Assembly (NCBI RefSeq): GCF_964355755.1 | Contig: NC_092671.1 | Span: forward strand, 27,354,070 to 27,418,069 | Length of the DNA: 64,000 nt | Direction: 5' to 3' | DNA from: Antedon mediterranea | Lineage: Eukaryota > Animalia > Echinodermata | In this document: in pieces, positions 2,137-60,640 of the stretch | Numbering within the stretch: the stretch's first letter is position 1 | How the letters are laid out: each line of letters opens with the position of its first letter | Translations under genes and position numbers: made by a program | Notes under the pieces: model-generated | Databases searched by the model: none | Told to the model about the DNA's origin: nothing | The model's input: the letters and a program-made list of their open reading frames with translations, nothing else

Positions 2137-2312
2137 GTAAGCAAATGTTTTAGGAGAGATTTCTGCATGAAAGACAAATTTATTATATTAGTAGGAATTT
2201 TCAATTTCCATGTTTAGCTGCAAAAAGACAATTTTTTTTGTTTTGGTATATTAAAAATATTGTATAGCAGATCAAGCAAACATTGCAGTAGCTAGTTTTA
2301 AAACGCTGTTTA

Positions 2313-7003: not shown

Positions 7004-7114
7004 ATACCAGACTCCACATTCCACATACAATTTGCTGCCTCTGGTATCAGTATTTCCATGTTGCTGGCCCCCATATTTGGAACACGTTTCCACAGCATAT
7101 TCCATTCTCATTAA

Positions 7115-26780: not shown

Positions 26781-27321
26781 GGAAACAGAATTGTCCAAAG
26801 ATGTTTCATACAGTGTTATAAGGGTGGGGAAACAGAATTGTCCAAAGATGTTTCATACAGTGTTATAAGGGTGGGGAAACAGAATTGTCCAAAGATGTTT
26901 CATACAGTGTTATAAGGGTGGGGAAACAGAATTGTCCAAAGATGTTTCATACAGTGTTAGAAGGGTGGGGAAACAGAATTGTCCAAAGATGTTTCATACA
27001 GTGTTATAAGGGTGGGGAAACAGAATTGTCCAAAGATGTTTCATACAGTGTTATAAGGGTGGGGAAACAGAATTGTCCAAAGATGTTTTATACAGTGTTA
27101 TAAGGGTGGGGAAACAGAATTGTCCAAAGATGTTTCATACAGTGTTATAAGGGTGGGGAAACAGAATTGTCCAAAGATGTTTTATACAGTGTTATAAGGG
27201 TGGGGAAACAGAATTGTCCAAAGATGTTTCATACAGTGTTATAAGGGTGGGGAAACAGAATTGTCCAAAGATATTTTATACAGTGTTATAAGGGTGGGGA
27301 AACAGAATTGTCCAAAGATGT
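26780..27321 (+). repeat. 47-bp minisatellite, ~11.5 copies
   Basis: GGGAAACAGAATTGTCCAAAGATGTTTCATACAGTGTTATAAGGGTG with period 47. Confidence 0.95.
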
Positions 27322-38704: not shown

Positions 38705-38830
38705 CCTAGGATGATAGGTTGTGACCAATGGCACTCTGCTCGAATTTGGCTGACGTAGTTTGTACATCTGACATAGGAATATCTTTTGCTTTCTTTATAG
38801 CAATTTCGATGTATTCCTTCTTGATATTTC
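38705..38830 (-). mobile_element. Penelope-like element fragment
   Basis: IEIAIKKAKDIP followed (after frameshift) by RVPLVTTYHP, a motif of the Penelope RT-to-GIY-YIG linker. Confidence 0.5.
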
Positions 38831-39143
38831 TGTTATTCAATTTGCTCCAATTTACAAAATCTGATATCAATTTACGGTAGTCATATTCATTATCATGCTT
38901 ATCACCTAAAATATATCCTGCGATAACAGTATCGTCTGCATATTTAATCACAGAACATGACTCATTTGGTGACCTAAAGTCAGAAGTGAAAAGGGAATAC
39001 AACACAGGTGATATTACACAGCCTTGAGGTACTCCTACATTTGTTATCCTGCTGTCAGAGATGTGCCCATTTGCTATTACAAACTGAGGTCTACATTTCA
39101 GGAAATCGGACAGCCACCTGATGATATTGTGGTTTATCTCCAT
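38831..39143 (-). mobile_element. Rex1/Babar-type LINE RT fragment
   Basis: IIRWLSDFLKCRPQFV, GVPQGCVISPVLYSLFTSD, IKYADD. Confidence 0.8.
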
Positions 39144-39855
39144 GGCCCTGTTTCTGCTGCCAAGAAAATACTGTATTTTATACGGTATTTTTTGAATACC
39201 GTATATATACCGTATTTGTTTGGCAGCAGAAACTGCGCTCATAAAAAAATACCGTATTTTGTATACCGTATTTTCCCCACAAAATTTGTTGATAAAATAC
39301 GGTATTTACAAATTTATACCGTATTTTCTGTACCCTTTTCTGCTGCCAATAAAAAATACCGTATTTTTTTTACCTGTGACATGAGGTCAACATCGTGTTT
39401 TTATTTTCTGTCGCTGTCAGCGGTTTTACACACGTGTATAGATATATTCGGCGAAAATGTGGAGCGAAGACGTCACAGTATTTACTATATAAATCTGTGT
39501 GGGAAAGGGGTGAGGAAGCTAAAAATGTCCGGCCAACTAAAAGGTAATAAAAGGGACAACCACATTTATAAAGACATTTCTAAACAAATAAAGCAGCAGG
39601 AGTATGGAATAGTCTCCAAAGCAAGTAAATTCAAAGCTCTCAACATCTCTATCACTAGGGCTAGGCTGTTGAAAGTGAGACGTAAAAATTCCTTTATTGC
39701 GATTTTTAATTATCGACCAAATAAATGAATGGCAATTTGGGTATTAAAGGATGAAATTTAACACGACCACCCAAGAAGTATTGTTAGCAGAAACGGGGTA
39801 TAAAAAATACCGTATTTTATACCGTATTTTGAGCAGTTGCAGCAGAAACAGACCC
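39144..39855. mobile_element. TIR MITE with subterminal AAATACCGTATTT repeats (Harbinger-like)
   Basis: GGCCCTGTTTCTGCTGC vs GCAGCAGAAACAGACCC inverted. Confidence 0.7.
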
Positions 39856-40735
39856 TAATTAATTAATTTTGATGACGTTATCACGTTTAAAAACTTGAAG
39901 AACGTGAGTCGTGTAATTTCACCTACACCATACAGTTTAATATCTTACAGCTCATCAGAATTAAACGTGCCCTTGAAAATTTTAACTTATTAAGAAAGCT
40001 GATGAAATGTAGATATGAATTCATAAAAAAATTAAGCCGGTCGGATGTTGTGATGTTATCATATGGCCAGTTGAAGTTAAAAAGTAGTTTTTAAATTTCT
40101 TTAGTCAAAGTTATACAAATTTCAAAGAGCGCGCATTGCGCTTCTACGTGTCAAATTCTCTTCCAATTCTTATATTTATTTGCTTAATTCATTATCTTTC
40201 GAAATTGTCATCTTCGAGTTTATTTTGATATATCCATCATACCAAAAAATTATAACATGATGTGTGTCCCGTAATTTCACCTATGCTACACTGTATATAG
40301 ATATACAGTATATACTGTATATTGTATATGGCATATAATAGGCACAACTCAACACTATAAGCATATAATAGGATGGAATGTATCATCATTTTCCGATCGT
40401 ATGATAACGTACGTGCATGTTTAAAACAAATTATTTTCAGTAATTTATTAATTAATTTCAGTAAAATGATAAAAATGATCACCTATAATTCGTCAAAGTG
40501 ACGAATTAAATTCTAGTTTCTTTTTGTAATTCTTTAACCTTTAGTTCATTAAATGACTTTTGGTTTATAATCTATGAACAATCATTAAAATTCATAAAAT
40601 TGCGCATAAGTCACATTGCGCAACTCTGACATTAAAAAATAGGAGGTGCACAAGTTCACGTAAATGTTGTTCTGTTTACACGTTTTAGAGACACGCGACG
40701 CACAAAAATGACAGAAGGAAAGAAGCATAATACAG

Positions 40736-41217
40736 GAAAAGATGATGAAACAGGACAGTTACAAGGAGTTATCCGCTACTAAGCGGATAACTAATAATAC
40801 AGAAAAAAAGATGATTTCATACAGTTACAAAGAGTTATCCGCTGAATGTGGATAACTAATGATTTCATACAGTTACAAGGAGTTATCCGCTGAATGCGAA
40901 TAACTAAAAAAAAAGATGATGAAACAGGACAGTTACAAGGAGTTATCCGCTACTAAGCGGATAACTAACTAGACGTGAAACCCGTCACTTTGACGAGTTA
41001 GTTATCCGCTCGACAAACGCCACGTGCACATCATGAATTTTGCACACAGAAAAAGATTATTATGACCTGAACTGAAGAATATGATGTGATGTTAGTGCTG
41101 AATGCTGTATATTTTGTGTCGTATAGTATACACAGTATAATCTGTATAAATATCACAAACAGTGTAAAATATCTGAAAACTAAAAAAGTAACAGGACGAT
41201 TACAAGGAGTTATCCAC
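40736..41217 (-). mobile_element. Cluster of Helentron-like (HINE) termini
   Basis: Four tandem ACAAGGAGTTATCCGC-loop-GCGGATAACT hairpins (40760-40966), one opposite end (AACTAG..CCCGTCACTTTGACGAG..AGTTATCCGC, 40967-41009) and a fifth head cut at 41217. Confidence 0.65.
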
Positions 41218-44200
41218 GGGTATTGCTAAACTGCGCAAACACTGCGCAAACAACAAAAAAAGCTGCGCAAACCTCCTTCAAACCAATTAATATTTATTAG
41301 AACACAACTAGAACTATATAGGGAGACAATTTATGAGAAAAAAAATTTGAAATCCCTTTAAGTTTGCCTTTTTTGGTGTGAAAAACTTCAATTTTTGGGA
41401 AAATTACTGATTTCACAGCGCAAACAACAAAAAAAGCTGCGCAAACCTCCTTCAAACCAATTAATATTTATTAGAACACAACTAGAACTATATAGGGAGA
41501 CAATTTATGAGAAAAAAAATTTGAAATTCCTTTAAGTTTGCCTTTTTTTTTGGTGAAAAACTTCAATTTTTGGGAAAATTACTGATTTCACAGCGCAAAC
41601 AACAAAAAAAGCTGCGCAAACCTCCTTCAAACCAATTAATATTTATTAGAACACAACTAGAACTATATAGGGAGACAATTTATGAGAAAAAACATTTGAA
41701 ATTCCTTTAAGTTTGCCTTTTTTTGTGTGAAAAACTTCAATTTTTTGGAAAATTACTGATTTCACAGCGCAAAGAACAAAAAAAGCTGCGCAAACCTCCT
41801 TCAAAACAATTAATATTGATAGAACACAACTAGAACTATATAGGGAGACAATTTATGAGAAAAAAAAATTTGAAATTCCTTTAAGTTTGCCTTTTTTGGT
41901 GAAAAACTTCAATTTTTGGGAAAATTACTGATTTCACAGCGCAAACAACAACAAAAAGCTGCGCAAACCTCCTTTAAATCAATTAATATTGATTAAAACA
42001 CAACTAGACCTATATAGGGAGACAATTTATGGGGAAACAAATTTGAAATTCCTTTAAGTTTGCCCTTTTTTTGGGTGAAAAACTTAAATTTTTGGGAAAA
42101 TTACTGATTTCACAGCGCAAAAAAAAAAAAAGCTGCGCAAACCTTCTTTAAATCAATTAATATTGATTAAAACACAACTAGACCTATATAGGGAGACAAT
42201 TTATGGGGAAAAGAATTTGAAATTCCTTTAAGTTTGCCTTTTTTTGTGCGAAAAACTTCAATTTTTGGGAAAATTACTGATTTCACAGCGCAAAGAACAA
42301 AAAAAGCTGCGCAAACCTCCTTCAAAACAATTAATATTGATAGAACACAACTAGAACTATATAGGGAGACAATTTATGAGAAAAAAATTTGAAATTCCTT
42401 TAAGTTTGCCTTTTTTTGGGTGAAAAACTTCAATTTTTGGAAAAATTACTGATTTCACAGCGCAAACAACAACAAAAAGCTGCGCAAACCTCCTTTAAAT
42501 CAATTAATATTGATTAAAACACAACTAGACCTATATAGGGAGACAATTTATGGGGAAACAAATTTGAAATTCCTTTAAGTTTGCCTTTTTTTTGGGTGAA
42601 AAACTTCAATTTTTGGGAAAATTACTGATTTCACAGCGGAAAAAAAAAAAGCTGCGCAAACCTTCTTTAAATCAATTAATATTGATTAAAACACAACTAG
42701 ACCTATATAGGGAGACAATTTATGGGGAAAAAAATTGGAAATTCCTTTAAGTTTGCCTTTTTTTTTGTGAAAAACTTCAATTTTTGGGAAAATTACTGAT
42801 TTCACAGCACAAATAACAAAAAAAGCTGCGCAAACCTCCTTCAAAACAATTAATATTGATAGAACACAACTAGAACTATATAGGGAGACAATTTATGAGA
42901 AAAAAAATTTGAAATTCCTTTAAGTTTGCCTTTTTTTGGGTGAAAAACTTCAATTTTTGGGAAAATTACTGATTTCACAGCGCAAACAACAACAAAAAGC
43001 TGCGCAAACCTCCTTTAAATCAATTAATATTGATTAAAACACAACTAGAACTATATAGGGAGACAATTTATGAGAAAAAAAATTTGAAATTCCTTTAAGT
43101 TTGCCTTTTTTTGGGTGAAAAACTTCAATTTTTGGGAAAATTACTGATTTCACAGCGCAAACAACAACAAAAAGCTGCGCAAACCTCCTTTAAATCAATT
43201 AATATTGATTAAAACACAACTAGACCTATATAGGGAGACAATTTATGGGGAAAAAAATTTGAAATTCCTTTAAGTTTGCCCTTTTTTGGGTGAAAAACTT
43301 CAATTTTTGGGAAAATTACTGATTTCACAGCGCAAACAACAACAAAAAGCTGTGCAAACCTCCTTCAAACCAATTAATATTGATTAAAACACAACTAGAC
43401 CTATATAGGGAGACAATTTATGAGAAAAAAAAATTGAAATTCCTTTAAGTTTGCCTTTTTTTTGGTGAAAAACTTCAATTTTTGGGAAAATTACTGATTT
43501 CACAGCGCAAACAACAAAAAAAGCTGGGCAAACCTCCTTCAAACCAATTAATATTTATTAGAACACAACTAGAACTATATAGGGAGACAATTTATGAGAA
43601 AAAAAATTTGAAATTCCTTTAAGTTTGCCTTTTTTTGTGTGAAAAACTTCAATTTTTGGGAAAATTACTGATTTCACAGCGCAAAGAACAAAAAAAGCTG
43701 CGCAAACCTCCTTCAAAACAATTAATATTGATAGAACACAACTAAAACTATATAGGGAGACAATTTATGAGAAAAGAAATTTGAAATTCCTTTAAGTTTG
43801 CCTTTTTTTGGTGAAAAACTTCAATTTTTGGGAAAATTATTGATTTCACAGCGCAAACAACAACAAAAAACTGCGCAAACCTCCTTTAAATCAATTAATA
43901 TTGATTAAAACACAACTAGACCTATATAGGGAGACAATTTATGGGGAAACAAATTTGAAATTCCTTTAAGTTTGCCTTTTTTTTGGGTGAAAAACTTAAA
44001 TTTTTGGGAAAATTACTGATTTCACAGCGCAAAAAAACAAAAAGCTGCGCAAACCTTCTTTAAATCAATTAATATTGATTAAAACACAACTAGACCTATA
44101 TAGGGAGACAATTTATGGGAAAAAGAATTTGAAATTCCTTTAAGTTTGCCTTTTTTTGTGCGAAAAACTTCAATTTTTGGGAAAATTACTGATTTCACAG

Positions 44201-44867
44201 CGCAAACAACAAAAAAAGCTGCGCAAACCTCCTTCAAACCAATTAATATTGATTAAAACACAACTAGACCTATATAGGGAGACAATTTATGGGGAAAAAA
44301 ATTTGAAATTCCTTTAAGTTTGCCCTTTTTTTGGTGAAAAACTTCAATTTTTGGGAAAATTACTGATTTCACAGCACAAACAACAACAAAAAGCTGCGTA
44401 AACCTCCTTCAAAACAATTAATATTGATTAGATAACAACTAGAACTATATAGGGAGACAATTTATGGGAAAACAAATTTGAAATTCCTTTAAGTTTGCCT
44501 TTTTTTTGGGAAAATTAAAGATTTCACAGATTTAAAGGCCTGCGCATACCCCCAAAAAAGCTGCGCAAACCTCCTTCAAATCAATTAATATTGATTAGAT
44601 AACAACTAGAACAATATAGGGAGACAATTTAGAAAAACATTTTGAAATTGCTGTAAGTTTGCCTTTTTTTTTTAAATTAAAAAATTTAAATTACAGATTT
44701 CACAGATGTCAAGGTTTGCGCACACTGCGCAAACACCAAAATAAGCTGCGCAAAAGAACACAACTAGAACTATATAGGAAGACAATTTATGAAAAAACAA
44801 TATTGAAATTCCTGTAAGTTTGTCTTTGTTTGGGTAAAACAATTTTTGGGAAAATTACAGATTTCAC
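41218..44867 (+). repeat. Left TIR arm: ~174-bp tandem unit, ~21 copies
   Basis: TTTCACAGCG recurs at 41411, 41586, 41760...; innermost units (44520-44867) diverged. Confidence 0.95.
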
Positions 44868-45011
44868 AACGGAAACTTTAAAAAAACAGAAACAAGAAAA
44901 AATTTTTTTTTCAAATATAACTTTTTTTAATGAAATGTTTCGCAATTATTTACCTTCAAAGTTTTTTTATAACATTCTACTGTATTTTCAAATCAACATA
45001 AAGCTTTACAT

Positions 45012-47300
45012 TTACAATGCTCTTTTTTCTTTTTTTCTGGTTTTGTTAGCCCTTTTTGAAGTATTTTGTCCCTTTTTTTTGCCACTAGTATATGGAGGAT
45101 TAGTTGTGGACAACTGTCCATTTGTGGAGGTAGTAACATTTTCCTTTTTAATTTTCGGTACGAATTGAGAAAACTTATAAAAGTGTGCATTTCTTTCTTC
45201 TTCAGTCATCGAGCTCCACATTAATTGATCGAGTTCAAATTTCTTAAAATCATTTGATAGTTTGTATCCTCCCATATTTACAAAAGACATTTTAACGTCT
45301 TTATATTGACCCGTAACCATTTTTTCCAACATAAGAACTAAATCCGGCAGTTTCTTTTGCTTCCAGTCTGCAAAGGCTTTAATTGAATGATTCATTGATT
45401 CATTGTTGTTATTTGTCCAACTGCCTATTAATTTCTTGTGCCAAAGCTTTTCCTTTAATTTCGGAATCATCTTATTCGTGTAATCCAGTGCATCTGGTAC
45501 AACATTACCAACAAATTCTCGTAGTAAATTTTCTGTTATTGCAAAAGATTCTTCTAAATTTGTGTTGAGCAATTGTATTACTTTTTTATGTATAGAGGTT
45601 CTTACATTTCTTGCATATTTTCAAGCATGTGTTTTCTGCATAAGACATGTTTACAATGGAAAGTGTCCACAAATGCTTTGTGCATAGCCAATTCGTCATC
45701 TGTTCCTACTATCAAATTACTAAAATCTTTAACGCCAATACTTATCAAATTATACTTAAGAAAATAGTAAAATTCCGCAAAGGCTAATTGGTCGCTCTTA
45801 TGGTGAAGTAACATAGGGCCAAAAAAAACTGGATGTTCATTGTCCATTTTAGTGACAGATAGGTTTTTATAGACCATAAGCGTAAGATAGGTTTTGCCTA
45901 AATTGAAGGTTTTGTCAATGCCCAAAACAGTTTTTCCAGAGCAACAAAACCGTTTAATGTCATTAAGTTGTTCTTTTGCGAAAAGCACAAATGCAGGTGC
46001 TTGGCCTTTGATGAATACCGTTTTTTGTAGAAAATCATTTTCTGTCAACATGTTGAGAACTTCTAATACTTCATCAGCGTAATTTTGAGTGTATGGTTTA
46101 CAACGACAACATTTGCTGTTCCTTTTATCGTTTTGTTTTAAGTTATAAATTTGCTTTCTATTCCGTAGTTCATCTTGAGTGTCTCTATATGTTTCGGATG
46201 GAGTTTTAAAGTGGCATTGATTCCTTACTTTATTAAGAATTTCAGGGTCTGTCCTTACATATGATTGATTGTATTTAGAGTTCCCGTGTGGTGCAGTTAC
46301 GTTTAACACTCCTCTGTATTCGTGAACAGCTACATATTTTCCATTTATTGTGTCATCAATGTAAGTAATTTTCCGTTCGTAATTGGTGGCACGTTTCTTA
46401 GAATAATAGCGATGGACATTAATAGTTCTAGCATCACCTTCCACAACTAACTCGGTGTACTTTTGAATTTTACCCTTTTTCTTGGTTTTTTTGTAAAATC
46501 TCCCATCATCTATCTTGTCAACAAATATTAAAGTATTGCTATTATTTACCAAATATGTATGTTTCACCTTTGAATTCCGTTGCCAGGCACCACAATCATC
46601 GTTAAACACATTGTTTCCATTCGTTTGCATTTTTCTTAAAACAACACAATAAGCATTATTCTTGACACCTTTAGGCACAGATTGTAATGGAATTGAGGAA
46701 TTCATTTCCTCCCAAATGTTTTCAATATTTAAAAATACACCATTTTGTAGTTCTTTTAAATCACCTTTGATGTTAACTGTACTTCTGTTACTATCATCAC
46801 TGGTAACATCTTGATGACTCTCCTTGTAGCTTTCACCATTGTCGTCGCTATCATTGTTAGTGTCTATACCGCTGTTGCACGTTTCATCATTTGCGAAATT
46901 GGAAGTATCATTGTCGTCGTTATCTTCTCTTGTAACATTTGTTTCATTGTTAGTGTCTATATCGCTGTTGCACGTTTCATCATTTGCGAAATCAGAAGTA
47001 CCATTGTCGTCGTTATCTTCTCTCGTAACATTTGTTTCATTGTTAGTGTCTATATCGCTGTTGCACGTTTCATCATTTGCGAAATCAGAAGTATCATTGT
47101 CGTCGCTATCTTCTGTTGTTTCATTCATTTCATTGTTAGTGTCCAAATCGCTGTTTAATGTTCCACCATTTGCGAAATCAGAAGTATCATTGTCAACATC
47201 ACTTGTGAGAGCATCCACGTCGACTTGCATTATATTTGGTTCATTGTCAGTTTCCATATCTTCATTCTCCGTTTTAATAACACAATCAGCATTCCAAAAA
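45012..47300 (-). pseudogene. MULE-family DDE transposase exon, frame-broken at ~45575-45605
   Basis: TVLGIDKTFNLG (D1), PVFFGPMLLH, IVGTDDE (D2), LCRKH (CxxH), WTNNNNESMNH (E); TGCTTTAACAG acceptor at 47301 extends the ORF upstream of the first ATG. Confidence 0.85.
46840..47195 (-). repeat. In-frame 87-bp (29-aa) acidic repeat, ~4 copies
   Basis: DNDTSDFANDETCNSDIDTNNETNVTRED repeated in ORF 45602..47257. Confidence 0.9.
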
Positions 47301-47887
47301 ACTGTTAAAGCAAAACAAATGTAAAATAAGATACAGTATTTAAACTACAAAACTGTAAAATTAATTTTATGAACAGTTTGTGGCAATTTGCTGAATTTAT
47401 GATTCATTTTTTGTTTAGAGACATTCTGCAAGCTGTGGGCCGCGGCCAAGAAACATTTTTTTAAGAGCCATGAGGTGACTTTGAATTTAAAAATTAAAAA
47501 AATTAAATAAAGAAGACAATAATGGGCAATACTCCTGTCACATGTTTGACATTCACAAAAACAATTTTAGCCACCGTAAAGTGCCTTTATTTAAAAGGAA
47601 TACAGTATGTGTTGGGACCTTCGGGCTAAGCTTAATTTCTTGTGGTCAAATATAAACATTAAAAACTAAACAAACATTACATGAGGGTCACTTCTTATAT
47701 TGAGGCGCTATAAAGATTGAAATATAATGTATAAATAAAAATGACCAACGTTAATTAGAATCCAATAATAGTTTTAAAACACAGCTCAATGCCAAAGGAA
47801 AACAGATTTAATTAATAATTAGTGCATTGCCCGCAATGATTTTGTTGACAACCACATCACACTGAATTTTGCCTGTCTGTCTGTAAC

Positions 47888-49894
47888 TAGGTATCCCAAT
47901 GAAAGCGCACCGAGGGGTATCACTTTTGAAATATTGACGAAATTCGAAAAAGTAGTATGACTTTGATGTTAAATAAATCGTATTCAGTCTTAATTAATAC
48001 TTACAAAATTTATATTGTTTGAAAGTACTTGTTTTAATCTATGTATAAGTGTGTTTATAATTAAAATTAATGAATTAGTTGCCGAGAAAATGCGATTTTA
48101 AAACGGTTCTAAAATCCCGTCGAGCCGATTTCCGCGCGTTGAAAACCTCATCGGAAAATCCCCATCAGTTTTCAAAACACGATCGCACGATTACCATTGG
48201 AGCTAGCGGATTAATTTTTGTTGTATGTTATCAGGCTTTAAATAAGCTTTAATTTGATACGAAAATCGTCTTCTATAAATAGGTTTTTCGTAACGAAAAG
48301 TCATTTTTTGTGACAAAAATCCAATTTTGATTCACCGTTTATGGAAAAATATTATGGATTTTGGTATTAAATTATAGCTAAATCTACATTGAAATCGATA
48401 AAACATAGTTTACAAACGTATTGTGCATGGTAATTGAGCGAACTACATTTTAAAATGGTGCATGAGGCGTAAATCCCGTTCAAAATTTTAAAGATCCAAC
48501 CATTATAATCCGGTGAATATTGTAGTGAGTAAAATATTGTACTCTAAAATACGCGCGTGTTTGTTGTGGCGTTTTCCGTTAAATACATTAATGCACCCTA
48601 TCAGCGAATGGTACGTTCCATATTTTGAACACGTTGTTTAGTTTTCCTCGCTCGAGTTCGACCGGCTCGACGCGAGATGTGTGACAGCAGCGATGTCGGA
48701 GATTGACATGTCCTTTTCCGTCGTAGAATATCTGGTTTTACACATTAATTTAACAACTTAAAATTGATGTAATGTGCGGAAGATTTATTATGCAAGTATA
48801 CAATGCAAATGCGTTAGGTTAAAATGAAATTTATTAAGCTAATTTACCAACGTTACATTTGACTCTGTATACGGCGGCCGAAAGTCATTAACTGCGACCG
48901 AAATACTTTAACGGAGCGACTACTGATCGCGAGTAAGCCTTGACTTGGCCTAAACTTTAGCTCCGTATTTCAATTTAATAACGTAATAATACGAAAAGAA
49001 AACAATTTTTATAATGTTATATATACTATTCAGGTAAACAATTAATTGTTTTAATTAACATTGATTATTTTAAATGAGTTTATTTTGACCCATATTGTGC
49101 GTTTGCCTTAAAAGAGCATATCTTACTTAGCAGCCCGGCTTAGATTTGGTGACATAATCATATGGGCCTAAAATCTTGTTTTACGTATTCAAAAGTTATA
49201 TATAATAGTATTTATGATTGAAATTATAAATATAAAGTATATTAAAATATTCTAATAATTATACTTACCGAAAAATAGTGTAAAAGAAAAGAAACAGTAC
49301 ACACCGTTTTTAACATACTTTTTCATTTTTTCTTTTTATAATTTTAAATTTCACCATTACAAAATTTTTTTTTTTTCATATACACATCTAAAATATATTT
49401 ATTAATGAAATATACACTACATTCTAACAAGTACAAAAAAAATTAAATGAATTAGTACAGTAGTTCAAAAGTTACAGATCATTGAAAAATAGCAGTTTTT
49501 TCATTTTTTAGGGAATTCCAGCAAAAATGGGCGTTAAATGCTTTCCTACCACTTTGCGGACCAATAATTTAAAAAATAGGTTTCGTTGAGGCTCCAAAAA
49601 AAATAGAGTTGTACAACTCTGTGATATCTATAGGTTTAACAAAATTCAAAACTTTTAACTAATTATTGTAAAAGTTATAACCTTTTAAAAATGCTTCCAA
49701 TTTCAACTGCAAAAAACACCATTTTTAGGCAAAAAATCGTATATTTTTTTACCACTTTAAATAACCATAACTTTAGAACGGGTAATCGGATTTCAATCAT
49801 TTAAATCGCAAAATGCTAATTACATTAAGTTCTTTATGGTTAACTGAAAGAAAATGTAAAAAAATTAATCTGAATTTTTTCATTGGGATACCTA
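47888..49894. mobile_element. 2.0-kb non-coding TIR element with 7-bp TSD interrupting the OTU exon
   Basis: TAGGTATCCCAATGAAA / TTTCATTGGGATACCTA TIR; CTGTAAC at 47881-47887 and 49895-49901. Confidence 0.85.
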
Positions 49895-50342
49895 CTGTAA
49901 CACCTCTTCCAACTATCTTTTTTGTGCAAATTCTGCTGTAAGAATCCTTCTCTGACAATGGTGGTCTAACACATGTAAATGAAATCCTTAAAGCAGCACT
50001 AACAGCATACATTTCAAGCATTGACGCCCATTGTCCTAGTTGTGCCACATGCATGCCTATGTTCTCACTGTGGGTAATTATTGGCCATAAACTTTGTAGA
50101 GCTGGTAGCATGAAACGCGGGTCTGTTGTGTTATACAGAGGTGAATGTTCCATAATTTCTAAGACAGTTATAAGTCTCACATAAGGATGGTGTTCTTCAG
50201 AACCAAACATTCCCAGTGAAACAGCTCGAAAGAAACAATTTCCATCGCCTTGTGTGCACATAGGATTTGAATCTTCACCAGTTAGTTGAAACATGAGTTT
50301 CCGTGCCTGCACATCTATGGATAACTCTTGAACAGGAGCAAT
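49895..50342 (-). pseudogene. OTU-like (vertnin-type) cysteine-protease exon of the MULE gene; continues below 47888
   Basis: CTTACTAG acceptor; TQGDGNCFFRAVSLGMFGSEEHHPYVR, GQWASMLEMYAVSAAL; removing the insertion restores GRGVTDRQAKFSVMW. Confidence 0.8.
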
Positions 50343-50576
50343 CTAGTAAGATGTAAAGTTTAAAGTTACTAACATAAACATTTATTATTCACTGGGTGGC
50401 CAGCATGACCAGACACCTATGCCAAATTTTACGATCAAAATGGATTTACAGTACATGTACATTATTATATTATAGGTGCATTCCACAGTACTGTAATTGA
50501 CATAATTAAAAAATAGGCATACTTCAGAATTTATTTCATGTCAAAGATTGAAAATGCAAATGTTATGCCGTAATCA

Positions 50577-51920
50577 TCTATATATAAATTTACGTAAGGG
50601 CAAAATTCGGTAAATCGCGCCTTACTTCTAGAATTTTTACTCGATGGTATGTAAAGTTGGTTCGTACTTTCGGTACTGATTTTAACCACCTGATGTAACC
50701 CTATTTACTAATTAAATTAAGTTAGATAATTAGTTATTGACGATTAAAACGAATTTAGGTTCAACGATTTGTCCCAAATAGGGGTGTTTCCCGATCGTGG
50801 TATACACTGTCTAATGGATGTCCATCTTGAAAAATACCTGCCACAAAAATGCGAGGAGGCTTCGCATTTTCCTATCTCCTCCTACGATAATTGTTTTTAA
50901 TAGCTGAAAACCGGTTGAACAGCTAGAGTACAGCATCATAATGTTGAAGACAGGCCGATTTTCTTTAAAAAATACTATTTTGATAGATTTAATATACGAT
51001 TATACAAATGTATTGATTTGCGGTGAATGGAACATCCCCATCTCTCAGTCTGCCAGAGTTTGGTTTAACACAAGTAGGTAAATTTATGAGCCCTTGGTTT
51101 AACACATACGGTAGGTAAATATATGGGCCCTTTGAGAATAAACTTGCAATACTTTGACAATACTGTAAATACCTATTAACTATTTTTGGTCCTCATTTGA
51201 ATCGAACATTTCTTACTGTGAATGTTCGTACTGTTAGATGTAATATAAAAATATATACAAATAAACTTTATTACTGAGATTGTGGTTAGGCTCTACTGTT
51301 AGATATATAAACACATTATTATATACAAATAAACTTTATACTGACAGTTCCCTGTCGACGTTTGTATTAATTATTAATTAATAATTACCAATAATATAAA
51401 CGTCGTAGTGGTGTATTACTCCATGGTGTATCGTGACATGTACTTTAATATTTCAATCAATTATGACAGTGACAGTTTTAACAAAGTATTAAATCGCAAA
51501 TGTTTTACTGTATTTAGAGGTATATTATTTATAGGCCTATAAAACATGAACAAAATATTTCGTTACTGAGTGGATAAAGAATATATTTAAAAATTGTTCC
51601 TCTTTGTACCTATCCGCTTTCCCATCCCTCAAACCTAATGTTACATACAAAACACAAATTGGGTTTCTTTAAATGAGTCCAAATCAACAATTTGGACTCA
51701 TTTTGTGATAAGTTTCTCCTTCGGAAGTAATTCTCAGGGTGCTAATTTTAGTTGACTACATAAATCATCGTGTCTATTTATTCGTTTCTGTAAACGACAA
51801 TGTATTATATAATAGTACATTTGAAATCGCCAGTTTTGTTACGCTGAAATTGCTGTGTATTCGAGAACCATCTGTGGGCACGACCTAGATGGTACGCAGC
51901 GAAGTGAGCGTACCATCTAG
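50577..51920 (+). mobile_element. Non-autonomous Helitron in an intron of the MULE gene
   Basis: A|TC 5' start; 3' CTAGATGGTACGC..GCGTACCATCTAG hairpin ending in CTAG; second copy at 14254-17000. Confidence 0.8.
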
Positions 51921-52701
51921 GAGACATAATTACATTTAAATATTGCCTATATTTGTTTATTAGTAAATTATATATGTTTATTAGATGTACTTTTTATGAT
52001 TTGTGATGGTTTTAGAAAATGTCCTCTAAATATATCATAATTCCTGTCCTAAATCTTAATTGTACTGCAGTAAATTTTTTTAGTTTCCATCAGTAAAATC
52101 CAATTTCATATCCTTGAGTTTACTATGCTATATTTCGAAAATATACATTTACAATTATAATAATAACTTCATAATACAACGTTACGGTTTTGACCGGCAT
52201 TACATAATGCCCAAGGGCATTACACGTGAAAAAAAAAAGAGTTTTACTTAAATTGTAAAGGGAAACGTAATATAGGATTATTACACATCATTTTAGTTTT
52301 TACAATACAAAGATTAAAATTTTAGGAGTAGATCCAATTTTGCCCTTTTTTAATTCCCACTAAAAAAAGATGTATTTAAATAGTCATTTGAATGAAATAT
52401 GATAATATTATTTATTATTTTGTTATCTGTTGTTACTAGAGACAAATTTAATTTTAATGTGTCAGTCACATTTAAATATTTTCATACCTACTCAAACTTC
52501 AATATAAGCAATAATTAAAGTTTCATTGATCAGATATAGCAAATTAAACTTTAAAAGTGTAAAGTCTGTGGTTAAAAAATACTGTGATTATATCAACATT
52601 TAAAATACTGTATTAATACATATGCTGAATTGCCCATATTCAAATCTGATACTATAGAAAACAATTCTTTTAACAAAAAAGCATTAGAAAAGCCTACATA
52701 C

Positions 52702-52897
52702 CTTAGGCAAGTAATCCTTATTCTTCTGTAGTAATGTCCTTTCAGATTGCCAAATTGTCTCTCCATTTCGGATTTGCCTTAAAGCGGATAAGCTGTCATA
52801 AAGTCCGTCAACAATGTATGGGTTTTCGATCTTTCTCCTTTTCCGAAATTGAGGTCCACGTCCCTTCTTGAACCGCTTGGTTCTAAACACTGACCAA
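52702..52897 (-). CDS. Predicted exon 2 of the MULE-internal gene (basic, NLS-like)
   Basis: TCATATAG acceptor, AAG|GTATGT donor; open WSVFRTKRFKKGRGPQFRKRRKIENP...YLPK; phase 0 matches the OTU exon. Confidence 0.6.
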
Positions 52898-53247
52898 CTA
52901 TATGAATACACAACATTTATGTCAATTAATGCTTGTTAGTTTATAAATGACAAACTTAACAATTTATACTAAATATTAATAAAAGTACTAAATAAAGTAC
53001 ATACTGTACTGTAATACTTTTTTATCTACGTTTTTTATGTTTAATTGTACGTTCGCAGTAATACTGTAGGTCTTAAATCCCTAGACCTTCTTTAAAGTAC
53101 AGTATATATATTTATACTGTCCTATACTTACTTACTATTATTACACACATTAGTGTACGTGTTATACCAAAACAGCAATATCATATATATAATTACATAT
53201 TTTAGCTAGCAATATAATTGGAAAAAAAGTAGTAGAAGATAATTTAC

Positions 53248-53261
53248 CTTTCATGATCCAT
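53248..53261 (-). CDS. Predicted first coding micro-exon (MDHE) of the MULE-internal gene
   Basis: GACATGGATCATGAAAG|GTAAAT; phase 2 matches the exon at 52897. Confidence 0.45.
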
Positions 53262-53277
53262 GTCTATAACTGGCAAC

Positions 53278-53682
53278 AGTTATCAGAAGTTAAAACAGCA
53301 GCAAAAAATAAGTTTTATGAGGAACGTCAGCAGTAGTTGTATTCAAAATAATCGTAAGCGATGTTTAACAGTTGAGAAAGTTATCAGAAGTTAAAACAGC
53401 AGCAAAAAATAAGTTTTATCAGGAACGTCAGCAGTAGTTGTATTCAAAATAATCGTAAGCGATGTTTAACAGTTGAGAAAGTTATCAGAAGTTAAAACAG
53501 CAGCAAAAAATAAGTTTTATCAGGAACGTCAGCAGTAGTTGTATTCAAAATAATCGTAAGCGATGTTTAACAGTTGAGAAAGTTATCAGAAGTTAAAACA
53601 GCAGCAAAAAAATAAGTTTTATCAGGAACGTCAGCAGTAGTTGTATTCAAAATAATCATAAGCGATGTTTAACAGTTGAGAA
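53278..53682. repeat. 101-bp tandem repeat, 4 copies
   Basis: AGTTATCAGAAGTTAAAACAGC at 53278, 53379, 53480, 53581. Confidence 0.95.
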
Positions 53683-53923
53683 ATCAAAATGAAATGGGGC
53701 AGATACAGCTTGTTTTACTTAGTTATACTCATTATAGGTTTTGATGCATTGTTTATGGAATAATTGTTTTTTTTACTGTAGGTGTCTGAACACCTTTCAT
53801 TGTTTTAAATAATAAGGCCATGTACATGTATTGTACGCCCTTCAAAAAGCTAACCTTAATTCAAAGGATAGCACAACTAATAATTTAAATTCATCACTTT
53901 CAATAATCAAACCTAAATGAATA

Positions 53924-56900
53924 AATTTCAAATTTTTTTTTCTCATAAATTGTCTCCCTATATAGTTCTAGTTGTGTTCTATCAATATTAATTGTTTTGA
54001 AGGAGGTTTGCGCAGCTTTTTTTGTTCTTTGCGCTGTGAAATCAGTAATTTTCCCAAAAATTGAAGTTTTTCACCCAAAAAAAGGCAAACTTAAAGGAAT
54101 TTCAAATTTGTTTTCCCATAACTTGTCTCCCTATATCTAGTTGTGTTTTAATCAATATTAATTGATTTAAAAAAGGTTTGCGCAGCTTTTTTTTTTTTTG
54201 GGCTGTGAAATCTGTAATTTTCCCCAAAAATTGAAGTTTTTCACCAAAAAAAAAGGGCAAACTTAAAGGAATTTCAAATTTGTTTCCCCATAAATTTTCT
54301 CCCTATATAGGTCTAGTTGTGTTTTAATCAAAATTAATTGATTTAAAGGAGGTTTGGGCAGCTTTTTTTGTTGTTTGCGCTGTGAAATCAGTAATTTTCC
54401 CAAAAATTGAAGTTTTTCACCCAAAAAAAAGGCAAACTTAAAGGAATTTCAAATTTGTTTCCCCATAAATTGTCTCCCTATAGGTCTAGTTGTGTTTTAA
54501 TCAATATTAATTGATTTAAAGGAGGTTTGCGCAGCTTTTTGTTGTTGTTTGCGCTGTGAAATCAGTAATTTTCCCAAAAATTGAAGTTTTTCACCCAAAA
54601 AAAGGCAAACTTAAAGGAATTTCAAATTTTTTTTCTCATAAATTGTCTCCCTATATAGTTCTAGTTGTGTTCTATCAATATTAATTGTTTTGAAAGAGGT
54701 TTGCGCAGCTTTTTGTTGTTTGCGCTGTGAAATCAGTAATTTTCCCAAAAATTGAAGTTTTTCACCCAAAAAAAGGCAAACTTAAAGGAATTTCAAATTT
54801 TTTTTCTCATAAATTGTCTCCCTATATAGTTCTAGTTGTGTTCTATCAATATTAATTGTTTTGAAGGAGGTTTGCGCAGCTTTTTTTGTTCTTTGCGCTG
54901 TGAAATCAGTAATTTTCCCAAAAATTGAAGTTTTTCACCCAAAAAAAGGCAAATTTAAAGGAATTTCAAATTTGTTTTCCCATAACTTGTCTCCCTATAT
55001 AGGTCTAGTTGTGTTTTAATCAATATTAATTGATTTAAAAAAGGTTTGCGCAGCTTTTTTTTTTTTTGCGGTGTGAAATCAGTAATTTTCCCAAAAATTG
55101 AAGTTTTTCACCTAAAAAAAAGGCAAACTTAAAGGAATTTCAAATTTGTTTCCCCATAAATTGTCTCCCTATATAGGTCTAGTTGTGTTTTAATCAATAT
55201 TAATTGATTTAAAGGAGGTTTGCGCAGCCTTTTGTTGTTGTTTGCGCTGTGAAATCAGTAATTTTCCCAAAAATTGAAGTTTTTCACCCAAAAAAAAGGC
55301 AAACTTGAAGGAATTTCAAATTTGTTTCCCCATAAATTGTCTCCCTATATAGGTCTCGTTGTGTTTTAATCAATATTAATTGATTTAAAGGAGGTTTGCG
55401 CAGCCTTTTGTTGTTGTTTGCGCTGTGAAATCAGTAATTTTCCCAAAAATTGAAGTATTTCACCCAAAAAAAGGCAAACTTAAAGGAATTTCAAATTTGT
55501 TTTCCCATAACTTGTCTCCCTATATAGGTCTAGTTGTGTTTTAATCAATATTAATTGATTTAAAAAAGGTTTGGGCAGCTTTTGTTGTTTGCGCTGTGAA
55601 ATCAGTAATTTTCCCAAAAATTGAAGTTTTTCACCCAAAAAAAGGCAAACTTAAAGGAATTTCAAATTTTTTTTCTCATAAATTGTCTCCCTATATAGTT
55701 CTAGTTGTGTTCTATCAATATTAATTGTTTTGAAGGAGGTTTGCGCAGCTTTTTTTGTTCTTTGCGCTGTGAAATCAGTAATTTTCCCAAAAATTGAAGT
55801 TTTTCACCCAAAAAAAGGCAAACTTAAAGGAATTTCAAATTTTTTTTCCCATAACTTGTCTCCCTATATAGGTCTAGTTGTGTTTTAATCAATATTAATT
55901 GATTTAAAGGAGGTTTGCGCAGCCTTTTGTTGTTGTTTGCGCTGTGAAATCAGTAATTTTCCCAAAAATTGAAGTTTTTCACCCAAAAAAAAGGCAAACT
56001 TAAAGGAATTTCAAATTTGTTTCCCCATAAATTGTCTCCCTATATAGGTCTAGTTGTGTTTTAATCAATATTAATTGATTTAAAGGAGGTTTGCGCAGCT
56101 TTTTTTGTTCTTTGCGTTGTGAAATCAGTAATTTTCCCAAAAATTAAAGTTTTTCACCCAAAAAAAGGCAAACTTAAAGGATTTTCAAATTTTTTTTCTC
56201 ATAAATTGTCTCCCTATATAGTTCTAGTTGTGTTCTATCAATATTAATTGTTTTGAAGGAGGTTTGCGCAGCTTTTTTTGTTCTTTGCGCTGTGAAATCA
56301 GTAATTTTCCCAAAAATTGAAGTTTTTCACCCAAAAAAAGGCAAACTTAAAGGAATTTCAAATTTTTTTTCCCATAACTTGTCTCCCTATATAGGTCTAG
56401 TTGTGTTTTAATCAATATTAATTGATTTAAAGGAGGTTTGCGCAGCCTTTTGTTGTTGTTTGCGCTGTGAAATCAGTAATTTTCCCAAAAATTGAAGTTT
56501 TTCACCCAAAAAAAAGGCAAACTTGAAGGAATTTCAAATTTGTTTCCCCATAAATTGTCTCCCTATATAGGTCTAGTTGTGTTTTAATCAATATTAATTG
56601 ATTTAAAGGAGGTTTGCGCAGCCTTTTGTTGTTGTTTGCGCTGTGAAATCAGTAATTTTCCCAAAAATTGAAGTTTTTCACCCAAAAAAAGGCAAACTTA
56701 AAGGAATTTCAAATTTTTTTTCTCATAAATTGTCTCCCTATATAGTTCTAGTTGTGTTTTAATCAATATTAATTGATTTAAAAAAGGTTTGCGCAGCTTT
56801 TTTTGTTCTTTGCGCTGTGAAATCAGTAATTTTCCCAAAAATTGAAGTTTTTCACCCAAAAAAAGGCAAACTTAAAGGAATTTCAAATTTGTTTTCCCAT

Positions 56901-59108
56901 AACTTGTCTCCCTATATAGGTCTAGTTGTGTTTTAATCAATATTAATTGATTTAAAAAAGGTTTGCGCAGCTTTTTTTTTTTTTGCGCTGTGAAATCAGT
57001 AATTTTCCCAAAAATTGAAGTTTTTCACCCAAAAAAAGGCAAACTTAAAGGAATTTCAAATTTGTTTTCCCATAACTTGTCTCCCTATATAGGTCTAGTT
57101 GTGTTTTAATCAATATTAATTGATTTAAAAAAGGTTTGCGCAGCTTTTTTTTTTTTTTGCGCTGTGAAATCAGTAATTTTCCCAAAAATTGAAGTTTTTC
57201 ACCCAAAAAAAAGGCAAACTTAAAGGAATTTCAAATTTGTTTCCCCATAAATTGTCTCCCTATATAGGTCTAGTTGTGTTTTAATCAATATTAATTGATT
57301 TAAAGGAGGTTTGCGCAGCCTTTTGTTGTTGTTTGCGCTTTGAAATCAGTAATTTTCCCAAAAATTGAAGTTTTTCACCCAAAAAAAGGCAAACTTAAAG
57401 GAATTTAAAATTTTTTTTCTCATAAATTGTCTCCCTATATAGTTCTAGTTGTGTTCTATCAATATTAATTGTTTTGAAGGAGGTTTGCGCAGCTTTTTTT
57501 GTTCTTTGCGCTGTGAAATCAGTAATTTTCCCAAAAATTGAAGTTTTTCACCCAAAAAAAGGCAAACTTAAAGGAATTTCAAATTTTTTTTCTCATAAAT
57601 TGTCTCCCTATATAGTTTTAGTTGTGTTCTATCAATATTAATTGTTTTGAAGGAGGTTTGCGCAGCTTTTTTTGTTCTTTGCGCTGTGAAATCAGTAATT
57701 TTCCCAAAAATTGAAGTTTTTCACCCAAAAAAAGGCAAACTTAAAGGAATTTCAAATTTGTTTTCCAATAACTTGTCTCCCTATATAGGTCTAGTTGTGT
57801 TTTAATCAATATTAATTGATTTAAAAAAGGTTTGCGCAGCTTTTTTTGTTCTTTGCGCTGTGAAATCAGTAATTTTCCCAAAAATTGAAGTTTTTCACCC
57901 AAAAAAAGGCAAACTTAAAGGAATTTCAAATTTGTTTTCCCATAACTTGTCTCCCTATATAGGTCTAGTTGTGTTTTAATCAATATTAATTGATTTAAAA
58001 AAGGTTTGCGCAGCTTTTTTTTTTTTTTGCGCTGTGAAATCAGTAATTTTCCCAAAAATTGAAGTTTTTCACCCAAAAAAAAGGCAAACTTAAAGGAATT
58101 TCAAATTTGTTTCCCCATAAATTGTCTCCCTATATAGGTCTAGTTGTGTTTTAATCAATATTAATTGATTTAAAGGAGGTTTGCGCAGCCTTTTGTTGTT
58201 GTTTGCGCTGTGAAATCAGTAATTTTCCCAAAAATTGAAGTTTTTCACCCAAAAAAAGGCAAACTTAAAGGAATTTCAAATTTTTTTTCTCATATATTGT
58301 CTCCCTATATAGTTCTAGTTGTGTTCTATCAATATTAATTGTTTTGAAAGAGGTTTGCGCAGCTTTTTGTTGTTGTTTGCGCTGTGAAATCAGTAATTTT
58401 CCCAAAAATTGAAGTTTTTCACCCAAAAAAAGGCAAACTTAAAGGAATTTCAAATTTTTTTTCTCATAAATTGTCTCCCTATATAGGTCTAGTTGTGTTT
58501 TAATCAATATTAATTGATTTAAAAAAGGTTTGCGCAGCTTTTTTTTTTTTTTGCGCTGTGAAATCAGTAATTTTCCCAAAAATTGAAGTTTTTCACCCAA
58601 AAAAAAGGCAAACTTAAAGGAATTTCAAATTTGTTTCCCCATAAATTGTCTCCCTATATAGGTCTAGTTGTGTTTTAATCAATATTAATTGATTTAAAGG
58701 AGTTTTGCGCAGCCTTTTGTTGTTGTTTGCGCTGTGAAATCAGTAATTTTCCCAAAAATTGAAGTTTTTCACCCAAAAAAAAGGCAAACTTAAAGGAATT
58801 TCAAATTTGTTTCCCCATAAATTGTCTCCCTATATAGGTCTAGTTGTGTTTTAATCAATATTAATTGATTTAAAGGAGGTTTGCGCAGCCTTTTGTTGTT
58901 GTTTGCGCTGTGAAATCAGTAATTTTCCCAAAAATTGAAGTTTTTCACCCAAAAAAAGGCAAACTTAAAGGAATTTCAAATTTTTTTTCTCATAAATTGT
59001 CTCCCTATATAGTTCTAGTTGTGTTCTAATCAATAATAATTGTTTTGAAGGAGGTTTGCGCAGCTTTTTTTGTTGTTTGCGCAGTGTTTGCGCAGTTTAG
59101 CAATACCC
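53924..59108 (-). repeat. Right TIR arm: ~174-bp tandem unit, ~30 copies, inverted relative to the left arm
   Basis: Units are reverse complements of the 41218-44867 unit (GCGCTGTGAAATCAGTAATTTTCCC...). Confidence 0.95.
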
Positions 59109-59178
59109 GTTATCCACTGATAATACATTAAAAAAAAAAATGATGATCCCATACAATAACAAGGAGTTATCCGCCAAG

Positions 59179-59637
59179 CATTAGTGTACAGCCCCATTAG
59201 AGAATGTGTTTTTGAAAAACTTCGGGTAAATGTCACTTAACCTCCTACTGTGACATGTGTTTATATAAGGGGCCGTTTACGAACAGCAAGTATCCGGATA
59301 ACTTGTCATCTTTTGATAACTAGAAGTCTGTAAACGGTAGGGAGAATTTTGATTTAGCCTTGTCAGGAGAGACCTCTGGCGTATCCAGATACTTTAAATG
59401 TTCATAAACACAACCTAAGTCCAACTTTGATAGGCAGGTCGTTAAGCCTTCTGCTAGTTTTTGCCTGACCATTGACCTTGCATACTGAAGAATGTACCTT
59501 GTCCTAATCAATCAATTACAAGAGAGCTAATAAAATCACAGGGGTATAATAGGATTCAGGTCATTAATCACCTGCTTAGTTTATTTATCTGATAAGGATT
59601 TTGACCAAAAAGTTCTAATGGGGATGTACACCTAATG
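59179..59637. mobile_element. MITE with CA..TG termini and 2-bp TSD (EnSpm-like)
   Basis: AG|CATTAGTGTACAGCCCCATTAGA ... TCTAATGGGGATGTACACCTAATG|AG. Confidence 0.7.
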
Positions 59638-59689: not shown

Positions 59690-60640
59690 GGATCTTGGCT
59701 TTATTAACATATTGGAGCTTATCAGTTCCCAAGTGTATGTCAACGTGTGAAGGTTGGGTAGAACTGAAACACGCCTTAAGGGCTTGACATTTTTTGGGGT
59801 TAAGCACTAAACAATTGTTGTTACACCAGCGGAAAAAAAAATTAAGATCATCTTGTAAAAAAAACCAGGCAATGAGAGTCAGTTTTTTGCAGGTGTCTAA
59901 CTCTATCTGCATTAAATTTTACTTTAGCTTTAAAGATTTCCCTCTTGACTTTGTTTCTGCAAGCTTTCCAATGGGTTAAGTTATTGGATTTCAACGCTTT
60001 TTGGCGTTCAGAAATAGAATTTCTGATATTTTGTGTTAGCCAAGGTTTATCAGTATTGTGCGTTTTAATATTTTTTAACGGGAAAAACTTATTAATAGCA
60101 GTGATCAGTTTGTAATAGAAAGCATCAACTTTACTCTGTGTAGAAATGCAGCTATAAATATCATTCCAATTCTGAGATACAATCCAGGTGCCAAATGATC
60201 TTATTCTGGTATCATATAAGGGACGAACACTTATAGATTTGACAACATTTTTGATAGCTTGAACTTTAGGTTTCCATAAAATACAGATGTGGTCACTAAA
60301 ACCAATAGGAGACATCGCTTCCGGGGTATGGTATTTAGTTTCAAAATTAGTCAAGATGAGGTCTAATGTAGCAAGTTCACGGGTTGGAAAATTAACAATT
60401 TGTTTTAAACAGTTATTACGTAAAATGTAGTTAATGTTCATTCTGTTGAAATCGCCCATAATGCAAAAACCAGTCTCAGTGATCTAGAACGAATAAGGTC
60501 AATCGTTTCACAAATATGCCGCTCAAGAAGAAGTTGATATGGGGAGTCTGTTGTGTACTTGAACACCTTGCTGCATATGCTACAATGCCAATTAACATTG
60601 ATATGTCTCTTGTCGATCTTAGTATTGTATTGGTAGCCAT
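59690..60640 (-). mobile_element. Deleted LINE remnant (endonuclease + RT tail)
   Basis: GDFN, FPTR..TLDLILTN, GFSDH, DKPWLT; then LQDDLN..WC..N.LVLNPKKC. Confidence 0.8.

What the first reader, a model, noticed from the sequence alone, without database searches (positions are those of the whole stretch)
41209..59117. 17.9-kb Mutator foldback element whose TIRs are multi-kilobase inverted satellite arrays
Seen: a perfect 9-bp duplication (GTTATCCAC) flanks exact terminal inverted repeats starting GGGTATTGCTAAAC. Each terminus runs into tandem ~174-bp units (about 3.6 kb left, 5.2 kb right) in opposite orientation, enclosing 9 kb with a D-D-CxxH-E transposase. Known: 9-bp TSDs, G-starting TIRs and this motif order are Mutator/MULE hallmarks, and foldback-type MULEs with repetitive TIRs (e.g. 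Phantom) are described. Inference: about half of this element is satellite, so it could be a mobile vehicle that seeds paired satellite arrays, and routine annotation would split it into two unrelated satellites. Whether this family is already catalogued cannot be judged here.
Basis: partly seen in the sequence, partly recalled or inferred. Interest (0 to 1): 0.88.

Follow-up and report, generated by a model that had tools for sequence, protein, structure and literature searches.

The report
Satellite-armed Mutator foldback transposon, broken copy
A 17.9-kb DNA transposon whose two ends are inverted arrays of a 174-bp repeat around a broken transposase gene; it likely moved by cut-and-paste with enzyme from another copy, and this satellite-armed design is already described in insects.

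Summary
Observation confirmed. A 9-bp duplication flanks a 17,891-bp element with 65 identical terminal bases; arms of 21 and 30 units of 174 bp in opposite orientation make up 49.6% of it. Removing it restores a unit of a host repeat seen 300 bp upstream. The same terminus joins other flanks in public runs of two organisms. The arms share variants but are not mirror images and have grown separately. The idea of Mutator-type foldbacks carrying satellite arrays is published (Tribolium Rehavkus: 164-bp units, up to 50 per arm, termini over 11 kb; Drosophila Tetris). What may be new is the family and the pairing of kilobase arms with an OTU-bearing MULE transposase rather than a Rehavkus/NOF one. 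Whether it moved with arms this long is not shown. New member of a known kind; interest 0.35.

The parts
41209..41217 (+). left target-site duplication, 9 bp
41218..41282 (+). left terminus, 65 bp identical to the right terminus; three GCGCAAA motifs at offsets 16, 27, 48
41262..44900 (+). left arm: 21 units of about 174 bp, two GCGCAAA motifs per unit, inner three units degenerate
45012..45620 (-). transposase C-terminal piece with the catalytic E (45401-45399); out of frame with the upstream piece
45602..47300 (-). transposase main exon: acidic 93-bp repeat linker, WRKY/GCM-like sheet domain, helix-turn-helix, RNase H-like core with D (45916), D (45700), CxxH (45640-45629); frameshift near 45610, about 56 bp short of homologues
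   Evidence: splice acceptor near 47300 is inferred from sequence
46851..47194 (.). 93-bp coding tandem repeat, 3.7 copies, in the acidic linker
47819..47880 (-). end of the OTU domain after the nested element; in-frame stop at 47821-47819 directly after the predicted catalytic His
47881..49901 (.). nested non-coding DNA element 47888-49894 (17-bp perfect TIRs) with its 7-bp target duplication (47881-47887, 49895-49901), inserted in the OTU exon
49895..50342 (-). predicted exon 3: OTU-like cysteine protease domain (catalytic Cys at 50237)
   Evidence: Pfam OTU E 1.4e-6, 29.3 bits over cut-off 23.3
50343..52701 (-). predicted intron 2 (GT..AG, 2,359 bp) holding fragments of a repeat also found at 14254-17001
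52702..52897 (-). predicted exon 2, 196 bp, basic peptide
   Evidence: GT..AG, frame continuous, no stops; not confirmed by RNA
53248..53261 (-). predicted exon 1 with ATG, 14 bp
   Evidence: not confirmed by RNA
53278..53683 (.). 101-bp minisatellite, 4 copies, 99% matches, between right arm and ATG
53920..59064 (-). right arm: 30 units of about 174 bp in opposite orientation; innermost unit cut off abruptly
59044..59108 (-). right terminus, 65 bp
59109..59117 (+). right target-site duplication, 9 bp

Best explanation
This is a foldback-type Mutator-like DNA transposon with a 9-bp target duplication, satellite-like inverted arms and a broken OTU-MULE transposase gene, which likely inserted by cut-and-paste and would now need transposase from another copy to move. 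Shown: boundaries, duplication, interrupted host-repeat unit, arm structure, transposase family, three lesions, and termini at other sites. Inferred: the transposase's WRKY/GCM-like sheet and helix-turn-helix bind the terminal 65 bp and the GCGCAAA motifs; the 174-bp unit arose by duplicating a subterminal segment holding two such motifs, so extra units add binding sites as in Muta1; unequal exchange or slippage then lengthened each arm on its own after an earlier phase in which both arms shared one pool of variants. Whether the copy jumped with arms already kilobases long (I put this at about 0.55) or grew them in place is open. The OTU domain is predicted to be a deubiquitinase-like accessory of the transposase in intact relatives; its role is untested.
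For: TSD, 65-bp identical ends, inverted arms. Empty-site join matches a paralogous host-repeat unit, score 89 vs shuffle maximum 58 of 1,000. Of 9 listed runs, 4 were laid on 41165-41290: in X6 (organism B) 2 contigs begin the match exactly at 41218 with other letters before it, one with 1,890 other bases; the printed consensus of those letters matches neither flank of this window, so at least one is another site; in X5 (organism A, another study) a 319-base contig matches 41218-41251 exactly and runs on for 285 unlisted bases. Family: 1,906 proteins at E<=0.001, best 40-49% identity; named homologues from Ciona and Branchiostoma (3 of 10 looked up carry a species name); Pfam at E<=0.01 on 47 proteins (window protein plus 46 long ones of 152 homologues): MULE 39, OTU 27, Transposase_mut 16, PHD 6. 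A profile of those 46 finds the three window pieces in profile order at E 2e-30, 5e-112, 1e-43. Model pLDDT 91; best Foldseek hit Hermes (E 6e-4), ISCth4 E 6e-3. Lesions: second D to E is 99.7 codons here against median 118.5, range 114-126, in the 42 of 152 homologues where all motifs matched; nested element and stop. Arms: 13 minor alleles shared by both arms, 5 arm-private; nearest neighbour in the same arm for 38 of 47 units; all 8 identical pairs within one arm. Precedent for binding to subterminal repeats: PMC5499845 (passages).
Against: No second full-length copy with paired ends, its own TSD and measured arms was seen; no genome is held and short-read contigs cannot span the arms. No listed contig shows a true empty allele or spans this window's own junction (29 loose-end rows and 536 pieces were not shown). 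The window protein itself has no Pfam hit. The binding-motif step is weak: the GCGCAAA columns are not significantly more conserved than random blocks (p 0.33), and 93 copies in the arms against 0 elsewhere is one repeated observation. The N-terminal fold matches (SSR4 Z 7.9, rmsd 3.7, 103 aligned; WOPR 6.4; GCM 6.1; WRKY 5.8; NAC 5.7) are all under Z 8. Exons are predicted from splice signals only.
Confidence: 0.82

Rival explanations
1. Same element, but the kilobase arms are a post-insertion growth: the family moves with short arms (a few units), and this dead copy's arms expanded in place into an incipient satellite. It would then be a source of satellite, not a vehicle for long arrays.
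For: The transposase is dead; recent identical unit pairs are all within an arm and 5 alleles are arm-private; arms are unequal and not mirror images (0.946 vs 0.947 for random pairs, p 0.63). PMC4079207 (Discussion) proposes that large arrays disrupt Tetris transposition.
Against: TSD and terminal 65 bp are still perfect while units differ by about 5.5% and three to four unit subtypes occur in both arms, which suggests the variant pool is older than this insertion. Tribolium Rehavkus-like elements are reported with termini over 11 kb on all chromosomes.
Confidence: 0.35
2. It is a member of the Rehavkus / FB-NOF group of foldback elements.
For: 9-bp TSD, long TIRs with subterminal tandem repeats of similar size (164 bp in Rehavkus-1_TC), PHD fingers in some homologues (6 of 47), a minisatellite next to one arm.
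Against: Homologues hit canonical Pfam MULE and carry OTU; the NOF-FB cluster in the Atlas carries Peptidase_C48 (45%) and PHD (34%) with no MULE listed and ranks 22nd at 0.77 for homologue P0011, below MULE clusters (all scores under 0.9, a lead only). No PHD was found in this copy.
Confidence: 0.1
3. Two pieces of a pre-existing satellite brought into opposite orientation by an inversion or a misassembly, with an unrelated transposase relic between them.
For: Arm lengths come from one assembly and were not checked with long reads; the right arm ends abruptly on the inside.
Against: Both arrays end in the same unique 45-bp cap, followed by a perfect 9-bp duplication inside an interrupted repeat unit; the cap is joined to other flanks elsewhere; unit order and private alleles differ between arms, so one is not a copy of the other.
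Confidence: 0.03

Closest known systems
Rehavkus foldback elements of Tribolium (Rehavkus-1_TC, -3_TC and like elements; bioRxiv 10.1101/2024.12.02.626372 = PMC12581902, passages seen; PMC10218199, passages seen)
   Same: Long inverted termini made of satellite-sized monomers (164 bp), unequal numbers per arm, up to 50 monomers, termini over 11 kb; proposed as source and vehicle of satellite DNA, with an 80.5-kb derived array.
   Different: Transposase here is an OTU-bearing canonical MULE; Rehavkus is treated as the outgroup to MULEs, with a PHD finger (PMC6446971). No free array derived from the 174-bp unit is shown here.
Tetris of Drosophila virilis (PMC4079207, abstract and first part of Discussion seen)
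   Same: Foldback TIR with a terminal cap, then tandem units (220 bp) that share sequence with the cap; 8-10-bp TSDs.
   Different: Tetris copies have no ORF and no known transposase; here the transposase gene is inside. Long TIR-220 arrays were read as disrupting the element; here both long arms and the TSD are intact.
MuDR-6_HM group (group 14) and mollusc MULE groups of Dupeyron et al. 2019 (PMC6446971, Table 1 and supplement row seen)
   Same: Invertebrate MULE with an Ovarian Tumour (OTU) motif.
Phantom / Muta1 / Tm1 (PMC5499845 and PMC3169594, passages seen; Marquez and Pritham 2010 not held)
   Same: MULE DDE transposase inside foldback TIRs, 8-9-bp TSD, GGG-starting terminus (Muta1), variable repeat number per end.
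   Different: Repeats are 12-15 bp and TIRs about 145 bp (Muta1); the transposase has an N-terminal FLYWCH finger, not seen among the listed families here; this protein has OTU instead.

Membership tests
Mutator/MULE superfamily | 8-11-bp target-site duplication | tested here: met
   9 bp exactly, inside an interrupted repeat unit
Mutator/MULE superfamily | terminal inverted repeats, G/C-rich first bases | tested here: met
   65 bp identical, starting GGG; G/C start noted in PMC13359780
Mutator/MULE superfamily | DDE transposase of MULE/IS256 type with His after strand 5 and helical insert before E | tested here: met
   D477, D549, CxxH, E; Pfam MULE in 39 of 47 scanned, though not in the window protein itself; fold hits Hermes and ISCth4; description in PMC1702500
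Mutator/MULE superfamily | WRKY-GCM1-type N-terminal DNA-binding domain | tested here: inconclusive
   sheet domain matches SSR4, WOPR, GCM, WRKY, NAC at Z 5.7-7.9, all under 8; Pfam CG-1 in 2 of 47 at best E 0.047
Autonomous MULE | intact transposase reading frame | tested here: not met
   nested element, stop at 47821, frameshifting deletion of about 56 bp
Foldback (structural class) | long TIRs built of tandem repeats, unequal between ends | tested here: met
   21 and 30 units of 174 bp
Foldback (structural class) | copies at several sites | tested here: met
   terminus joined to other flanks in X6, probably X5; paired ends and TSDs of those copies not seen
Rehavkus / FB-NOF | PHD finger in the transposase | tested here: inconclusive
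   none found in this copy; present in 6 of 47 scanned proteins
Rehavkus / FB-NOF | DDE core in the Rehavkus clade outside canonical MULEs | not testable with these tools
   no Rehavkus or NOF sequence available; indirect lead against
Phantom | N-terminal FLYWCH finger plus MULE domain | tested here: inconclusive
   FLYWCH absent from the 9 families at E<=0.01 and from the 25 shown of 54 at E<=5; PMC6446971 lists Phantom as none, FLYWCH or SWIM, so absence does not exclude it
MuDR-6_HM group (OTU-bearing) | OTU motif with the MULE transposase | tested here: met
MuDR-6_HM group (OTU-bearing) | phylogenetic grouping with MuDR-6_HM | not testable with these tools

The most novel reading that the evidence does not exclude
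An independent origin of satellite-armed foldback elements in a widespread but little-described OTU(+PHD)-MULE clade of invertebrates: copies move in trans with multi-kilobase arms, the 174-bp unit is an amplified pair of transposase-binding sites read by a CG-1/GCM-like domain, and most of this 'satellite' in at least two related organisms lives in paired transposon arms.
Probability: 0.35. Interest if true: 0.55.

Novelty: new member of a known kind. Interest (0 to 1): 0.35.

Why it matters
It is a clean example, with boundaries, target duplication and cognate transposase gene all in one locus, of how nucleosome-sized satellite units arise inside transposon ends; Tetris lacks the gene and most satellite-TE links lack the TSD. 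If young copies share long arms, it makes testable how long a foldback arm can be and still transpose, and whether arm variants turn over faster than the element moves. It also shows that TIR lengths in MULE surveys (14-500 bp in PMC6446971; up to about 1.2-1.5 kb in PMC13359780) miss this class. The principle itself is published, so the gain is breadth, not a new mechanism.

Tried and rejected
Whole-genome search for other copies: no genome held. Empty allele in reads: the flank is a high-copy repeat that breaks contigs, none listed spans the site; no verdict. Copy number and share of units inside arms from summed contig depth: not a copy number by the tool's own note, not used. Expression: no RNA holder listed. 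TA duplication for the nested element: rejected for a 7-bp duplication. Higher-order trimer in the arms: lag 3 left p 0.05, lag 5 right p 0.02 among 14 tests, not accepted. Mirror symmetry of arms: rejected (p 0.63). Extra conservation of GCGCAAA: p 0.33. Vertnin link (recalled): paper passages gave only an IS3-type HTH remark, dropped. Search for longer homologues with alignment A2 looked only at 2,516-5,000-residue proteins and found none; uninformative. PDB sequence search with P0011 gave only weak OTU hits. Earlier findings of this scan: none by place or by words. Paper searches with no result: Mutator+Phantom+OTU+transposase+TIR, MULE+OTU domain+PHD+transposon+deubiquitin, foldback+Ciona+three more terms; one search gave one unrelated paper. 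These cover only the held library; Repbase, Dfam, Marquez and Pritham 2010, Yuan and Wessler 2011 and Feschotte and Pritham 2007 were not readable, and the Tribolium supplements were seen as legends only.
Full report
Observation. GTTATCCAC stands at 41209-41217 and 59109-59117 and the match extends no further on either side; the 17,891 bases between begin and end with 65 identical bases in inverted orientation. Period-174 arrays lie at 41240-44670 and 53924-59086; splitting on an anchor gives 21 left and 30 right units, together 49.6% of the element. The site lies in a host repeat that is high-copy in the four runs laid. Joining the flanks with one copy of the 9-mer gives a unit that aligns to a paralogous unit about 300 bp upstream, score 89 against a mean of 46 and maximum of 58 in 1,000 shuffles of the right flank. 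The duplication is therefore a real target-site duplication.

Other copies. No genome is held. Nine public runs hold the transposase region: four of one sample at 0.92-0.95 of words (possibly the window's source), one of a second study of organism A at 0.40, and four of organism B at 0.09-0.30. Four of the nine were laid on 41165-41290. In X6 two contigs match from exactly 41218 with other letters before; one carries 1,890 other bases. The printed consensus of those letters matches neither flank here, so at least one is a different insertion. In X5 a 319-base contig matches 41218-41251 without a difference and continues for 285 bases whose letters were not listed. The tables were cut (29 loose-end rows and 536 pieces not shown), and no listed contig shows an empty allele or pairs two ends. 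The family has moved; arm lengths of other copies are unknown.

Cargo. On the minus strand, splice signals predict a 14-bp and a 196-bp exon and an exon from 50342, in one frame without stops for 219 codons and with GT..AG introns; no RNA confirms this. The third exon is an OTU-like protease domain (Pfam E 1.4e-6). It is interrupted by a 2,007-bp element at 47888-49894 with 17-bp perfect TIRs and a 7-bp duplication; reading across it continues in frame to the family's conserved Met-Trp motif, and a stop follows the predicted catalytic His. The main exon holds an acidic linker, then the transposase. The window protein has no Pfam hit, but 1,906 library proteins match at E<=0.001, and of 47 scanned (itself plus 46 long homologues of 152) 39 hit MULE, 27 OTU and 6 PHD. 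Three of ten homologues looked up are named, from Ciona and Branchiostoma. A model of residues upstream of the frameshift (95-row alignment, pLDDT 91) has a sheet domain like SSR4/WOPR/GCM/WRKY/NAC (Z 5.7-7.9, below the level that excludes a common arrangement), a helix-turn-helix and an RNase H-like core nearest Hermes and ISCth4. The distance from the second Asp to the Glu is 99.7 codons against 114-126 in the 42 of 152 homologues where all motifs matched, so about 56 bp are deleted and the frame is broken. This copy is non-autonomous. Whether the lesions came before or after this insertion was not tested.

Arms. Mean unit identity is 0.947 within the left arm, 0.945 within the right and 0.942 between them. 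On 18 left and 29 right core units (3 degenerate left units and 1 truncated right unit left out), 13 minor alleles are shared by both arms and 5 are private, 38 of 47 units have their nearest neighbour in the same arm, all 8 identical pairs are within an arm, and units at mirror positions are no more alike than random pairs (p 0.63). I read this as one ancestral pool of variants followed by separate growth by unequal exchange or slippage. The left arm fades inward; the right stops inside a well-kept unit, which suggests an internal deletion (inference). The cap has three GCGCAAA motifs and each unit two; they are candidates for binding sites, but they are not significantly more conserved than random blocks (p 0.33).

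Mechanism. Cut-and-paste by a MULE DDE transposase with a 9-bp staggered target cut follows from family knowledge and the TSD. In Muta1 more subterminal repeats strengthen binding and raise excision (PMC5499845, passages), which is the model for why a motif-bearing unit would be amplified; it is untested here and Muta1 repeats are 12 bp. The main open point is whether the element moved with long arms (about 0.55) or grew them in place.

Comparison. Tribolium Rehavkus elements carry satellite monomers in inverted termini, 164 bp in one family, up to 50 monomers in another, termini over 11 kb in a third, and an 80.5-kb array from an orthologous repeat (passages). Tetris has 220-bp units derived from its cap. 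The transposase differs: it is an OTU-bearing MULE, and the NOF-FB cluster (C48 protease, PHD) ranked 22nd for a homologue in the Atlas (lead only). The one OTU-bearing animal MULE group in Dupeyron 2019 is listed without TIRs. I could not place the family on a tree with curated elements or check Repbase and Dfam, and four paper searches for this pairing found nothing relevant in the held library. The host is an animal by inference from introns and homologues; it was not identified.

Verdict. Real, well-bounded, broken foldback MULE; new family of a known kind unless already curated. Interest 0.35.

Noticed in passing
window 47888-49894: Nested non-coding DNA element with 17-bp perfect TIRs and an unusual 7-bp target duplication; superfamily not established.
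   Followed up: partly
window 39850-41217 and 59118-59180: High-copy host repeat with short hairpin-forming units (GTTATCCGC..GCGGATAAC), present in all four runs laid, in two organisms; possibly Helitron-related (recalled resemblance, untested).
   Followed up: partly
window 59184-59631: About 450-bp segment bounded by an 18-bp inverted repeat (94%), inserted in the same host repeat just right of the element; MITE-like.
   Followed up: no
window 50576-51920 and 14254-17001: Fragments in the predicted second intron match, inverted, a repeat region elsewhere in the window at 78-94%.
   Followed up: no
window 61034-63053: Gag-like and integrase-like open frames of a Copia-type LTR retrotransposon on the minus strand (assignment from motifs, recalled, not searched).
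   Followed up: no
window 38706-39305 and 59848-60483: Remnants resembling non-LTR retrotransposon reverse transcriptase/endonuclease regions (recalled resemblance).
   Followed up: no
window 2312-4483 and 26780-27321: Homogeneous tandem arrays of 103 bp x 21 (97% matches) and 47 bp x 11.5 (98%); a 65-bp piece of the first recurs at 7005-7069.
   Followed up: no
window 7765-8493: Open frame with two ubiquitin-interacting-motif-like peptides, likely an exon of a host gene (recalled motif).
   Followed up: no
homologues P0004-P0155: A large PHD-OTU-sheet-HTH-MULE protein family (1,906 hits) whose sheet domain has no clear Pfam family; weak CG-1 hits in 2 of 47 (best E 0.047) hint at a link to CAMTA DNA-binding domains.
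   Followed up: partly
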